This document shows positions 2,545 to 62,636 of a stretch of DNA of 64,000 bases, piece by piece. The notes beneath the pieces are model-generated. The model was not told the origin of the DNA. It was given only the letters and a program-made list of their open reading frames with translations, and did not search any database. Each line of letters begins with the position of its first letter. Position 1 is the stretch's first letter. The stretch is from Octopus vulgaris. Its lineage: Eukaryota. A program made the translations under genes and the position numbers. Location of the stretch: contig OX597819.1 in assembly GCA_951406725.2 (NCBI GenBank), positions 61,070,001 through 61,134,000 on the forward strand, written 5' to 3'.

Positions 2545-2589
2545 GGCCAGAGTTCTCTCGTCACACTTCTGTGACCTCATCAGTGGTCC
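2545..2589 (-). ncRNA. Degenerate minimal hammerhead ribozyme motif
   Basis: Minus strand GGACCA CUGAUGA G GUCAC agaagu GUGAC GAGA GAAC UC UGGCC; GAAA mutated to GAGA. Confidence 0.55.
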
Positions 2590-2656
2590 TTTGCTTTCTT
2601 TCTTTCTTTTTCTCTCTCCTTATTAACGATCTGCCATTTTGAAAGAAGAATGCTAA

Positions 2657-2701
2657 GGACCACTGATGAGGATACAGAAGTGTGACGAAAGAACTTTAGC
2701 C
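2657..2701 (+). ncRNA. Degenerate minimal hammerhead ribozyme motif
   Basis: GGACCA CUGAUGA G GAUAC agaagu GUGAC GAAA GAAC UU UAGCC; core intact, stems I and II partly eroded. Confidence 0.55.
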
Positions 2702-2906
2702 GAAATGCAATTAATATAAAATAAAGCTGAAGCAAGTGAACACCAAATATATAGCGCGTGTGTTTTCATTGGCTAAACTGGCAACATGACCATCCCCAAA
2801 TACAATATCTGTTTCACACACGAATTCACATCAAGAATCTTGCAAAACGAATATATAAACACACACACACACATATATATATATATATATATATATATAT
2901 ATACCG

Positions 2907-3288
2907 CCGTATATACTCGTCTATAAAACGCCCTTGCGTATTAGACGGACTTCCGACTTACAAGGTTCGGATCGGGAATTTTTTCATTGACCCGACTATA
3001 ATTCGCAGCGACATTTTTGATGTTGGAGAGTAAAGTTCGATTAGGAATCGCACCGATATACTTGTTGTTCGATAACCGAGCTTTTAGTAAGCTGAAGATG
3101 ACTTAAAGCAACTGTTATCGTATTAAGTCCATGCATTTTAGAAACCGTTGTTCATAATGTAAAATTTTATCCTTGTCGGTTATTCCAAGTGTCGGAACTT
3201 CAGATGTGGCTTGTACCTAGAAAATATCTGAACATTTTTATAGGATGTGCTTTTAAGTCTAGTGCGACTTATAGCTGAGTATATATTA
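2907..3288. mobile_element. Non-autonomous pogo/Tc2-like DNA transposon (MITE), diverged
   Basis: Left end ccgtatatactcgtctataaaacgc is inversely matched by gcgacttatagctgagtatatat at the right end; CCGTATATACTCG-type termini in TA-rich context. Confidence 0.55.
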
Positions 3289-3317
3289 TATGTATATATA
3301 TGTATTATATATAAACA

Positions 3318-3481
3318 ATTGCAGAGTGGATGGTGTTTATAAGCCATTTAAGAAACCCACAAAAACCGTTAGATTCACTTCAACATTAAAATTAAATTTG
3401 CCAAAATATTTTCGTCGCTTTGAGACCGCAACCTGTTCACTGACAAAATTCCGTGCTGCATGAAATTTTGTCAGTGAACAG
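3318..3481 (-). mobile_element. PLE-like terminal-repeat fragment (same family as 10205-10545) with short fold-back
   Basis: Near-identical to 10270-10397; ends in inverted repeat ctgttcactgacaaaatt...aattttgtcagtgaacag. Confidence 0.75.
3397..3447 (-). ncRNA. Minimal hammerhead ribozyme motif, G3-C8 core variant
   Basis: Minus strand UUUGUCA GUGAACA G GUUGC ggucucaaa GCGAC GAAA AUAU UU UGGCAAA: 7-bp stem I, 5-bp stem II, palindromic stem III. Confidence 0.65.
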
Positions 3482-3965
3482 ACAGACAGAATAATAGAAC
3501 GACCAAAGATAGACATGGAGTCTGACGTCACACAAACGAACTACTACCGTCATCACTATCACTTTTCTCCCTCTATTCCAGTCTATGTCTCTTTCTCATT
3601 CTCTGTCTCTCTCCATTCTACTATTTCGGAAAGAAAATGGGAGAACGAGAAAGATTTAAAACATTACTATATTTCAAATTTTGTGTCCTTTTCTTTACCT
3701 TATTTAATAGAATGCGTTTGCTTTGTAGTTTTTGAATATGAAGACTACACACACGCTCTCGACTCACATTTGTATACATAAATACATACATTATCTTCGG
3801 TTTACACTGTAGATTTGCTCTGCGAGTCACCGTGCAAATGTGAACCGTCGGAGATACATTTTAATGATATTAATAAAAACGCGCAAAATGTAAATCATTT
3901 ATACAAATAAATACAATTATCGCATAGAGATAGGCAGTGCTATAATATTTTTATCCAAAGTAAGT

Positions 3966-59381: not shown

Positions 59382-59601
59382 CAGTAATCCCTCGCTACAT
59401 TGCGGTTCACCTATCATGGTTTATTATTTAAGCTTACGTCGATTCCCCCATGGTGTTGTTTTGTATTTATAATAAAATAAATATATACAAATTATAGAAA
59501 CAATAATAAAAAATATACAGTACTGTTTCTACTTCACGGATTTTCACGTATCGCGGGGGTGGGAGTGGAACATAACCACCACGATAATCGAGGGATTACT
59601 G
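59382..59601. mobile_element. pogo/Tigger-like MITE
   Basis: cagtaatccctcg...cgagggattactg|TA perfect 13-bp termini. Confidence 0.88.
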
Positions 59602-60630
59602 TAATTTCAATACTACAAAATGTGGTAACACATATGAATATACTGCTCCAAGGCAAAAAAGAACACCCCAAAAACTTTAGATATTTCCGAGAAAGTTACA
59701 CAAAGTTCATATCACTGTTTCTGTTTTTTTTTTATTCTATATATTTCCAGGTAACGTTCATTCATCACACCTGGTCATTGCGTTGTTCAACTTCAAATAA
59801 ATTCTCTAAAAATCCAATCACAATGCCATTGTGGTACAACTCACGGATGGATTTTCAGTCACATGAAGAATCTCAGAAAATATTCCGTTACCTCCAAACA
59901 GTTTACTAGGATACTGAATGGAAACAGCTGATACCAAGTAACGTATCTAACACAATATTATTACATTATACTTGAATACAGATGACAGATGTCATGTAAT
60001 TTATCTGACTCAATATCTCCACTACGTCTAAAAACGAACAACAGATAGCAATGTATTTGTTGTCTTCCTACCTATGATTCGGTGAGGGATTCCCTTTCTA
60101 AGGGCCTTGATTAATAGAAACAAACTATTTCGTTTTCTTCTTTATTTTATTATTTTTTTGGCTAACTTTTGACCTCGATTGGCGTAGCATTAACTACAAA
60201 TCTGAAATAATTCATCCACTAAGTTTGAAATGCAGCCGATCAAGATTCAACTATTATAACTTAGTTTCGGTTTCCTTTCTAATTAAAACTTTTGCTAAGA
60301 TCTTACTGGAATTTCAAGAAATATTTCTTAACATCATTTTATCAGAGCAAAACACTGAATGAAAATTCAAATAGGTGGAATGAAAAGATATTGTGCCCGG
60401 CCACTCCCTCCAACGTACACACTCCCTCTCTTTCATAAATCTATTTAATTATTAAACACACACATATGTATAAACATAGATGCACAAATATATGTATACA
60501 CACGAACGTATATATAATTGCATACGCATACATACTTTACATATATATATTATATATACATATGTGTGAGTGTCTGTAAATATGTATGTAGATATATAAG
60601 CATACGTGTATTTATATACATTTATATACG

Positions 60631-61035
60631 AACCACATGGTCCTGAGTTCAGTCCCACTGCGTGGAAACTTGGACAAGTGTCTTCTACTATAGCCTCGGG
60701 CCGACCAAAACCTTCTGAGTGGATTTGGTAGACGGAAACTGAAAGAAGCCCGTCGTATATATATATATATATATATATATATATATATATATATATGTAT
60801 GTGTGTATATGTTTGTGTGTCTGTGTTTGCCCCCCTCCCCTCCATCAACATCGGTTGACAACCGATGCTGGTGTGTTTACGTCCCCGTAACTTAGCGGTT
60901 CGGCAAAAAGAGACCGATAGAATAAGTACTAGGGTTACAACGAATAAGTCCTGGGGTCGATTTGCTCGACTAAAAAGGCAGCGCTCCAGCATGGCCCCAG
61001 TCAAATGACAGAAACAAGTAAAAGAGTAAAAGAGT
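60631..61035 (+). mobile_element. SINE family A, nearly full length
   Basis: aaccacatggtcctgagttcagtcccactgcg...(AT)n...gaaacaagtaaaagagtaaaagagta. Confidence 0.92.
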
Positions 61036-61747
61036 ATATATACACCCATATCGTCAAACATATTTATATAGACACACACTCTATCACATACTTATACATA
61101 CACACATTCGTAGGTGTATGTTTACTTACTTATATGCATACTCATTCACATGTATATATGTATTCCTGTAGTATATGATATGCACTTGTTTTGAGTAATA
61201 GAGTAACATCACGTGATGGCAACGTTCTCGTGCCAACGATCACTATTTCATTTTGCGAACGAATTCCGCGAACAGGAAGATTTAGCTCCAATGATGAAAT
61301 CCATAAAAACAAAGAGAAGCAAAAGAGACATATTCGCGGTATATTTGGGGAAAACCAGCGAATAAATACGCGCCCAACCAGTTCTAATCAATCTGCTTTG
61401 AATCAAGTAATTCGATATGTTACATCGGAACAACTGATCAGATTCCAGGTGTAAATTCGATCCTGATGCTATTCACAGGAACTTATTGTTTCCATCAAGT
61501 ATTCTATCGACTGCCATTGCTTATTTTTAACGAGATTGTCTTTGCTATTCGGTTTTTTTTTTCGGCTTTCTGTATTCTTTCTCTATGGATTAGGTGTATT
61601 TTTTTCTCTTTCTAGTTACAATGTTGACATGACATCGAATATTATTATCACGGTCATGTAAATGAGTGCATATATATATATATGTGTGTGTGTGTGTGTG
61701 TATACTATCTATCTATTAATATTTGTTTTTATGTTCAATTATAAGCC

Positions 61748-62468
61748 TTTCTATTATAGACACAAGGTCTGAAATTGTTGTGGAGAGGACTAGTCTATTA
61801 CACTGACTCCAGTGTTTTACTGGTATTTAATTTATCCTTTTCTACTACAGGCACAAGGCCCTACATTTTTAGGGAGGGAGCCAGTCAATTAGATCGACCC
61901 CAGTACGCAAGTGGTACTTAATTTATCGACCCCGAAAGGATGAAAGGCAAAGTCGGCCTCGGCGGAATTTGAACTCAGAACGTAAAGACAGACGAAAAAC
62001 TGCTAAGCATTTCGCCCGTCGTGCTAACGTTTCTTATTTCTTTACTATCTACAAGGGGCTAAATACAGAGGGGACAAACAAAGTCAGACAAAGGGATTAA
62101 GTCGATTACATCGACCCCAGTGCGTAACTGGTGCTTATTTAATCGACTCCGAAAAGATGAAAGGCAAAGTCGACCTCGGCGGAATTTGAACTCAGAACGT
62201 AACGGCAGACGAAATACGGCTACGCATTTCGCCCGGCGTGCTAACGTTTCTGCCAGCTCCCCACCTTTGGTATTAAATTTATCGACTTCCAAAGGACGAA
62301 AGGCATTTCGTCAGTCTTTACGACCTGAGTTCAAATTCTGACGAGATCGACCTTTCCTTTCATCTTTTCGGGGTTGGTAAAATAAATACCAATTGAACAC
62401 TGAAGTCAATGTAATTGACTTCACCCCTTTCCCGAAATTGCTGGCCTTGTGCCAAAATTTGAAACCAA
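61748..62468. mobile_element. SINE family B cluster: minus-strand multimer (61748-62266) and plus-strand monomer (62295-62468)
   Basis: Reverse complement of the 20265-20697 dimer, followed by an oppositely oriented copy. Confidence 0.9.
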
Positions 62469-62552
62469 TATAATAATAATAATAATAAGTATGACGAAGT
62501 AGCATTAGCATTACCTTTAATTCACATTTATATATAAATACAGTCTCAAGTA

Positions 62553-62636
62553 GACCTACACGTGTTTCGACTGCATCGGTCAGTAACCGTTGCAGCTGCA
62601 ACTATACAATGGCACCGTTGCAGTTTCTTCAGGCTC
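62553..62636 (-). ncRNA. Hammerhead motif with extended stem II
   Basis: Minus strand GAGC CUGAAGA A ACUGCAACGG...CCGAUGCAGU C GAAA CACGUG UA GGUC; palindromic stem III ACACGUGU. Confidence 0.65.

What the first reader, a model, noticed from the sequence alone, without database searches (positions are those of the whole stretch)
2545..62636. Dense zoo of about 15 minimal hammerhead ribozyme motifs from several unrelated families
Seen: HHR-topology motifs at 2545(-), 2657(+), 3397(-), 10346(-), 10416(+), 10736(-), 21774(-), 29050(-), 37285(-), 37821(+), 41023(-), 45094(-), 52657(-), 57919(+) and 62553(-). Stems differ in sequence between families yet keep core-stem II-GAAA-short stem III-UH. 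Most have a self-complementary stem III (ACGU, AGCU, ACAUGU, ACCGGU, AAUAUU, ACACGUGU), and most have one extra nucleotide after A9. Established: this is the dimer-cleaving minimal HHR of PLEs. Inference: roughly one motif per 4 kb implies a very large genome-wide ribozyme load that ORF- or protein-based annotation cannot see.
Basis: partly seen in the sequence, partly recalled or inferred. Interest (0 to 1): 0.75.

Follow-up and report, generated by a model that had tools for sequence, protein, structure and literature searches.

The report
Penelope hammerhead remnants, one tRNA-headed family
The fifteen hammerhead-shaped RNA motifs are real but are mostly decayed, likely silent end pieces of a known kind of animal jumping gene; the surprise is one protein-coding family whose copies begin at a tRNA-like start signal, so it may be read by RNA polymerase III (untested).

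Summary
All 15 motifs are present: 10 keep an intact core, 12 have a palindromic helix III, and 6 pass a strict descriptor against 0.26 in shuffles. They form about 10 repeat families. Three families connect firmly to Penelope-like (PLE) RT/GIY-YIG coding sequence and a fourth weakly. Two others look like short units with a fixed 5' end. The extra nucleotide, 3-8 covariation and genome-wide abundance are in Cervera & De la Pena 2014.

"One per 4 kb" overstates it. A 1.2-Mb sample gives one homolog per 14.6 kb (about 190,000 remnants) but only about 35,000 strict-intact motifs. Most are lone, so probably do not cleave.

The unusual part is family G (37826+, 41028-), a Poseidon-type PLE. Its end repeat is a tRNA-like A/B-box head, (AAT)n, then an ORF start overlapping the ribozyme. 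Copy 5' ends pile at the head (11 of 14; 20 of 23), and its ORF is poor in T4 terminators. Pol III transcription is plausible but untested. The scan noted this family before on other DNA (e1-8669850, e1-8663237).

The parts
2448..2860 (.). Family A head-to-head inverted insertion in (TA)n; only the + arm carries the 3' tail; HHRs at 2550-2583(-) and 2663-2696(+), non-palindromic helix III (AGAACT)
   Evidence: 1415 first-look candidates; weak GIY-YIG/RT-like matches upstream in 5 of 15 loci; left boundary read by eye
3316..3480 (-). Family B unit, HHR 3404-3440 with G3-C8 core and 7-bp stem I, short inverted 5' arm
   Evidence: upper boundary approximate
10208..10545 (.). Family B head-to-head palindrome, ~55-nt tail on one arm; HHRs 10352-10388(-) and 10423-10459(+, G5A)
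   Evidence: 3479 first-look candidates
10744..10775 (-). Family C HHR (U3-A8, ACCGGU) about 680 nt downstream of the PLE ORF stop
11455..12150 (-). 5'-truncated Neptune-like PLE ORF end (Zn-knuckle linker plus GIY-YIG endonuclease)
   Evidence: Pfam PF01541 24.8 bits, over cut-off; 68% identity over 225 aa to another genomic PLE ORF. The clade name is recalled from the linker motif described in Craig 2021; no tree was built
21777..21806 (-). Degenerate family D HHR (U3.G8, U4C, ACAUGU)
   Evidence: weak local similarity to 57925 (score 55 vs maximum 47 in 300 shuffles); not searched genome-wide
28960..29140 (-). Family E29 short unit ending in (TA)n, HHR 29054-29080 with U4C
   Evidence: 24 homologs in 1.2 Mb
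37288..37319 (-). Family F HHR (intact core, AGCU), old near-single copy
   Evidence: one other distant genomic match
37631..37920 (+). Family G solo pLTR: tRNA-like head (A box 37634-37644, B box about 37678-37688), (AAT)n, ORF start, HHR 37826-37861; no tail
   Evidence: 3' boundary approximate
40942..41253 (-). Family G solo pLTR with tail: tRNA-like head, (AAT)n, HHR 41028-41063 inside an open frame matching the N-terminus of PLE proteins
45000..45200 (-). Family E45 PLE 3' end, HHR 45097-45124 with family-wide A6U core
   Evidence: 27 homologs in 1.2 Mb; 5' boundary approximate
52663..52700 (-). Family H HHR (intact core, helix III one change from a palindrome)
   Evidence: 2 homologs in 1.2 Mb
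57925..57955 (+). Family D HHR, intact core, ACAUGU, old near-single copy
   Evidence: one other distant genomic match
62557..62632 (-). Family I HHR with long stem II and ACACGUGU helix III
   Evidence: 299 first-look candidates including same-strand pairs about 2 kb apart, one with an adjacent inverted copy; no ORF examined

Best explanation
The motifs are minimal type I hammerheads in the end repeats (pLTRs) of about ten Penelope-like retroelement families, likely left behind as short, mostly decayed and probably non-cleaving copies. Inferred mechanism: the PLE RT-endonuclease nicks AT-rich or microsatellite DNA and starts reverse transcription at two nearby internal sites downstream of the ribozyme. 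It copies towards the RNA 5' end and often joins two cDNAs head to head. This gives inverted pairs with a tail on one arm only (shown) and many 200-350-nt solo pLTRs. In an active element the ribozyme would cleave as a dimer or with protein help, but cleavage is probably not needed for mobility. In family G the RNA 5' end is inferred to lie at a tRNA-derived A/B-box head, the only sizeable non-coding part of the element. It most likely acts as an internal Pol III-type promoter (about 50% for the short RNA, lower for the full-length mRNA), and the ribozyme core also codes for the protein's N-terminus.
For: Motif anatomy and shuffles.

Links to PLE ORFs. C. E45. G. A: weak, 5 of 15 loci. Minimal HHRs lie downstream of 14 of 30 GIY-YIG loci and of 12 of 32 relatives from other organisms.

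PLE signature. Of 21 distinct B palindromes, 18 have the tail on exactly one arm and none was scored with it on both. The same pattern appears in G pairs and the A pair. It matches Craig 2021 (passages) and the two RT start sites of Frangieh 2024 (parts 1-2 of 4), who also found HHR cleavage dispensable in vitro.

Family G. 5' ends lie within 9 nt of the tRNA-like +1 in 11 of 14 and 20 of 23 copies that reach it, against 5% expected. The tail runs into the ORF, and one copy (L369) starts at the head and continues into it. The HHR-spanning frame matches the N-terminus of an 847-aa homolog. T4 runs are 0.36 per kb and nearly all private to single copies, against 1.0-4.7 per kb in other PLE ORFs of this genome and a median of 3.1 in 71 relatives, of which 3 are as low.
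Against: No cleavage or transcription data: no run on record as RNA, contigs only. No parent ORF was found for B or E29, and D, F, H and I were not linked to coding sequence.

5'-end pile-ups also occur in families without a tRNA head (E45: 12 of 36 within 11 nt; B; E29), so a pile-up marks an RNA end, not the polymerase. A TATA-like word sits about 34 nt before the G head (visible), which fits Pol II as well.

The head scores only 13.6 bits (E 5.9) on Rfam tRNA in one copy and not at all in another; ARAGORN calls none. T4 depletion is modest under a synonymous-codon null (P 0.017 and 0.10). An uncapped Pol III RNA of about 3 kb would need an unknown route to translation.
Confidence: 0.85

Rival explanations
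1. Family G is transcribed by Pol II from the TATA-like word that overlaps the ORF stop codon in tandem copies, or its 5' end is made by RNase P-type cutting of a read-through RNA. The tRNA-like piece is then a 5' UTR or processing signal, and the solo copies are promoterless.
For: TATA-like word about 34 nt before the head. Pile-ups of 5' ends occur in families with no tRNA head. Kojima 2024 argues that autonomous elements must use Pol II because Pol III is poorly processive (passages).
Against: A and B boxes keep the canonical spacing of 33 nt (consensus as printed). Several ends reach 3-5 nt upstream of the tRNA-like +1, unlike an RNase P cut. There is no family-wide T4 run across 829 of 847 codons except one site shared by 2 of 7 copies.
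Confidence: 0.4
2. The high-copy short units (B, E29, short G copies) are independent non-autonomous SINE- or retrozyme-like elements with their own master copies, mobilised in trans by PLE proteins.
For: 50 of 55 B copies end 7-27 nt before the core (a set enriched for palindromes), and no E29 copy shares unique sequence beyond about 90 nt upstream. PLE coding remnants are rare in the 1.2-Mb sample (5 places) against 82 motifs.
Against: G and E45 looked the same until walked upstream, then proved to be ends of coding elements. Both G sequence variants occur in long copies, so there is no clear separate short lineage. B and E29 contain T4 runs and no A/B boxes were seen by eye. They are not in tandem arrays like retrozymes.
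Confidence: 0.45
3. The motifs are an active, host-relevant layer of self-cleaving RNA that cuts host transcripts at one site per few kb.
For: About 35,000 strict-intact motifs by extrapolation. Palindromic helix III could allow dimers in trans between abundant transcripts (inference).
Against: Lone minimal HHRs did not cleave and dimers cleaved poorly (Cervera 2014). The anole HHR needs protein, and no RNA-seq ends mapped to its site (Frangieh 2024). Inverted pairs would bury the motif in a long hairpin. The largest families have altered cores.
Confidence: 0.1
4. The motifs are chance matches.
For: Loose descriptors give 20 hits against 12.5 in shuffles. Rfam finds none at gathering score.
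Against: Strict descriptor gives 6 vs 0.26. Families keep the architecture with different stems and 3-8 pairs (C-G, U-A, G-C) and sit at PLE ends. Chance remains possible only for a degenerate singleton such as 21774.
Confidence: 0.02

Closest known systems
Minimal HHRs of metazoan PLE pseudo-LTRs (Cervera & De la Pena 2014, PMC4209133; parts 1-2 of 4 read)
   Same: Extra nucleotide between 9 and 10.1, U3-A8 variant, palindromic helix III, many heterogeneous families, mostly single motifs from truncated PLEs, opposite-strand pairs 100-700 bp apart.
   Different: They report about 2,000-9,000 per genome. Here about 35,000 strict-intact and about 190,000 homologous remnants are extrapolated (different methods, not directly comparable). 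A natural G3-C8 family (B) and a family-wide A6U core (E45) are not in the parts I read.
Poseidon_Ac of the green anole (Frangieh et al. 2024, PMC11167929; parts 1-2 of 4 read)
   Same: HHR overlapping the ORF start, tail formed by internal RT start sites in the first part of the ORF, AT-rich targets.
   Different: In family G the whole core appears to lie inside the reading frame, and the pLTR begins with a tRNA-like A/B-box head plus (AAT)n. Of 32 relatives, 0 have such a head (positive control 13 of 30).
Cassandra, Helenus and Ajax (TRIMp3; Kojima 2024, PMC10886601; passages read)
   Same: A small-RNA-derived Pol III promoter inside a retroelement's terminal repeat, thought to arise from a SINE insertion.
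   Different: Those are short non-autonomous LTR elements; family G is a protein-coding PLE of about 3 kb.
Schistosome Sm-alpha/Sj-alpha SINE-like elements and non-LTR retrozymes (review PMC6765202 and PMC7229834, passages; bioRxiv 10.64898/2026.07.22.740005, part 1 of 5 and passages)
   Same: Short HHR-bearing repeats, Pol III promoter in Sm-alpha, proposed mobilisation by PLEs.
   Different: Those are tandem, non-coding and carry canonical HHRs. The units here are dispersed or head-to-head and minimal, and G is continuous with its own ORF.

Membership tests
Minimal type I HHR of PLEs | Core (3)UGAN(8)A and GAAA with a paired 3-8 position, stem II, UH site | tested here: met
   10 of 15 intact, 5 degenerate; strict descriptor 6 vs 0.26
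Minimal type I HHR of PLEs | Extra nucleotide after A9 and short palindromic helix III | tested here: met
   11 of 15 and 12 of 15
Minimal type I HHR of PLEs | Self-cleavage as a dimer or with protein help | not testable with these tools
   No raw RNA reads; needs an assay
Penelope-like elements (EN+) | Linked telomerase-like RT and C-terminal GIY-YIG ORF | tested here: met
   C, E45, G; A weak. Not found for B and E29; not examined for D, F, H, I
Penelope-like elements (EN+) | Inverted 5'-truncated partner copy and one-sided tail | tested here: met
   B 18 of 21, G, A
Penelope/Poseidon clade (family G) | HHR and tail overlap the ORF start | tested here: met
Penelope/Poseidon clade (family G) | RT phylogeny groups it with Poseidon | not tested
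   No tree built; the clade name rests on architecture and recalled motifs
tRNA-derived SINE (family G) | tRNA-related head with A and B boxes | tested here: met
   Box match with 33-nt spacer; alignment to 30 genomic tRNA genes gives z up to 7.6, isotype not assignable; Rfam weak or absent
tRNA-derived SINE (family G) | Non-coding element separate from its autonomous partner | tested here: not met
   The head is part of the autonomous element's pLTR, about 30 nt after the stop and upstream of the next ORF start
tRNA-derived SINE (family G) | Transcribed by Pol III | tested here: inconclusive
   Indirect only: 5'-end pile-up and T4 depletion; rival TATA-like word
Non-LTR retrozymes | Tandem 170-400-nt repeats each with a type I HHR | tested here: not met
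   No HHR-bearing tandem array in the window

The most novel reading that the evidence does not exclude
Family G is an autonomous, protein-coding retrotransposon run from a captured tRNA-type Pol III promoter. Its RNA of about 3 kb has been purged of Pol III terminators and is translated without a cap from a start whose codons double as a hammerhead core. Its internal RT start throws off tens of thousands of promoter-bearing solo pLTRs, SINEs born from inside their own driver.
Probability: 0.33. Interest if true: 0.75.

Novelty: new variant of a known kind. Interest (0 to 1): 0.45.

Why it matters
The zoo itself is known biology at larger scale. It is a cheap marker for finding and classifying PLE ends in repeat annotation; the 2026 octopus repeat paper I read has no occurrence of 'ribozyme' or 'hammerhead' in its main text. 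Families that spread to tens of thousands of copies with altered cores bear on the open question of whether PLE hammerheads need to cleave at all. If family G is truly Pol III-driven, it is an exception to the view that coding retroelements need Pol II, and a testable model for how SINEs arise.

Tried and rejected
My first reading of family G as a separate Penelope-mobilised SINE was dropped once upstream walking reached its own ORF. The first descriptor missed 4-nt helix III motifs through a bug, fixed. Rfam found no hammerhead. The A/B-box pattern failed its positive control and was redone.

A diagnostic-variant test for a separate short G lineage was inconclusive: short copies were mostly one variant and long 3' ends another, but both variants occur in long N-terminal copies. 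An HDV-like fold at the B 5' end was considered by eye and rejected. Expression: no RNA holder listed; contigs of four guessed-RNA runs cover the element but show no start, strand or level. A metagenome scan with a single protein found nothing; the alignment scan worked.

Literature searches: hammerhead+Penelope+octopus gave only Craig 2021. Penelope-like+tRNA-like+polymerase III+retrotransposon gave 0 papers. Three SINE+Penelope searches (listings, plus passages of PMC6962438, PMC8969392 and PMC6685494) showed no tRNA-headed PLE. A search for natural G3-C8 cores was uninformative (listing only). Lunse et al. 2017 was not available and is known to me only through the review. No supplementary files were opened, and Repbase/Dfam libraries were not available, so these families may already be catalogued there.
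Full report
Context. The window lies on a chromosome-scale contig of a 2.8-Gb animal genome and is AT-rich and full of microsatellites. It looks octopus-like; that is my inference from recalled repeat types and agrees with earlier scan notes.

Observation. All 15 motifs are present. Ten keep an intact core, 12 have a palindromic helix III and 11 have the extra nucleotide after A9. Three different 3-8 pairs occur: C-G, U-A (10744) and G-C (family B). A strict descriptor finds 6 in the window against 0.26 in 50 shuffles; with one core mismatch, 9 against 2.56. 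Looser settings are at chance level, so the degenerate motifs are supported by homology instead. Rfam finds none at gathering score. The motifs fall into about ten families: A (2545/2657), B (3397, 10346/10416), C, D (21774, 57919; weakly joined), E29, E45, F, G (37821, 41023), H and I.

Density. I fetched 120 stretches of 10 kb at round-number positions on 29 large contigs. Homologs of the window's motifs number 82: E45 27, E29 24, G 17, B 10, C 2, H 2, others 0. That is 68 per Mb (bootstrap 53-86), one per 14.6 kb, or about 190,000 (150,000-240,000) if extrapolated. It is a lower bound, because only families present in the window were counted and old copies escape BLAST. Strict-intact motifs number 20 against 3-6 in six shuffles, or about 35,000 genome-wide; with one mismatch, 103 against 43-62. 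The window, at 234 per Mb, is about three times richer than the sample. The two biggest families mostly carry altered cores: A6U in 23 of 24 E45 matches, with position 7 free to vary, and U4C in 11 of 19 E29 matches. Perreault 2011 (passages) reports low activity for changes at position 6.

What they belong to. C lies about 680 nt downstream of a GIY-YIG ORF end in the window. Of the 30 best GIY-YIG loci in the genome, 14 have a strict U3-A8 minimal HHR on the same strand 0.7-1.2 kb downstream and one has it inverted. Walking upstream, E45 reaches RT and endonuclease sequence and so does G. A shows weak matches (E 6e-5 to 0.04) in 5 of 15 loci. Family I has same-strand pairs about 2 kb apart, but I did not read them. 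For B, 50 of 55 copies end 7-27 nt before the core. That set is enriched for palindromes, and the five longer alignments appear to run into the reference's repeat flank (not checked singly). E29 copies share no unique sequence beyond about 90 nt upstream, so no parent was found for either. D57919 and F have one distant match each. The PLE insertion signature is clear: 18 of 21 distinct B palindromes carry the tail on exactly one arm, 1 on neither, and 2 could be scored on one arm only. G and A pairs behave alike.

How it works. Shown: motif anatomy, family structure, ORF links, one-sided tails. From the literature: the tail is the stretch between two internal RT start sites; the anole HHR cleaves only with protein and is dispensable for insertion in vitro (Frangieh 2024); single minimal HHRs did not cleave and dimers did so weakly (Cervera 2014). 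Inferred: RT starting downstream of the ribozyme and running to the RNA 5' end, or stopping early, leaves short pLTR copies, which explains why ribozyme motifs (82) far outnumber coding remnants (5 places) in the sample. In the window only one same-strand same-family pair exists, 7 kb apart. Inverted pairs would fold into hairpins that mask the motif. Most copies are therefore probably silent.

Family G. Its pLTR reads: stop codon, about 30 nt, tRNA-like head, (AAT/AAC)n, ORF start, HHR, tail, rest of ORF. The head matches the Pol III A/B consensus printed in Goubert 2022 with a 33-nt spacer and one mismatch. It aligns to genomic tRNA genes with z up to 7.6, but Rfam and ARAGORN barely or do not see it. 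The frame through the ribozyme aligns with the N-terminus of an 847-aa homolog at about 46-50% identity over 76-81 residues in eight loci, and the conserved peptide letters fall on the catalytic core.

G 5' ends. In the unselected set (sample, window and flanks), 18 heads were found: 4 begin inside the head, 11 within -4 to +8, and 3 further upstream. In 29 loci chosen by the ribozyme part, 26 heads were found: 3 inside, 20 within -9 to +9, and 3 upstream. Background truncation of 0.0027 per nt predicts 5% (P 1e-12 and 1e-23). Palindromic junctions can shift single ends by a few bases.

G terminators. T4 runs total 7 in 19.5 kb of pooled coding copies covering 829 of 847 codons, with one site shared by two copies. 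Other PLE ORFs of this genome have 1.0-4.7 per kb, and 71 relatives have a median of 3.1, with 3 at 0.4 or below. A synonymous-codon null gives only P 0.017 or 0.10. None of 32 relatives has an A/B head after the ORF (positive control 13 of 30), while 12 of 32 have a minimal HHR. Against Pol III: pile-ups also occur without tRNA heads (E45 12 of 36 within 11 nt), a TATA-like word precedes the head, and translation of an uncapped RNA is unexplained.

Comparison. Craig 2021 describes inverted copies, tails and microsatellite targets. The closest analogues of G are Cassandra, Helenus and Ajax and Sm-alpha, all non-coding. My searches showed no tRNA-headed coding PLE, but repeat databases and supplements were not seen. 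I reached the G reading before looking at earlier scan notes; three of them describe the same families on other DNA, and they are not independent evidence.

Verdict. The motifs are real and belong to a known kind; density and activity were overstated. Family G is a new variant worth a promoter test. Interest 0.45.

Noticed in passing
L066:8607-9030 (- strand), L145, L136: Another minimal HHR family (U3-A8, ACGCGU helix III) not in the window; in L066 two same-strand copies lie 362 nt apart, like a tandem retrozyme.
   Followed up: no
L171-L174: A family of 781-aa Neptune-like PLE open frames, preceded by a separate 330-400-aa open frame that overlaps their start, i.e. an apparent two-ORF organisation.
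   Followed up: no
window 45097-45124 and genome sample: Family E45 has U at core position 6 in 23 of 24 matches while position 7 varies freely, so a large PLE family spread with a probably crippled ribozyme whose shape was kept.
   Followed up: partly
window 3404-3440, 10352-10459: Family B has a natural G3-C8 core and a 7-bp stem I, a fixed 5' end about 22-27 nt before the core, and 6 nt at the 5' end complementary to the end of its tail.
   Followed up: partly
window 9124-9705 (-): 193-aa open frame that resembles the C-terminal end of a LINE reverse transcriptase (recalled resemblance; no Pfam hit).
   Followed up: no
window 3967, 6372, 6556, 7077, 19131, 20269 and 61943-62267: An abundant SINE-like repeat family, including a 184-nt tandem duplication at 6417-6782.
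   Followed up: no
L378, L395, L397, L382: A few related PLE ORFs from other organisms are also nearly free of T4 runs; L378, L397 and L382 have no A/B head after the ORF.
   Followed up: no
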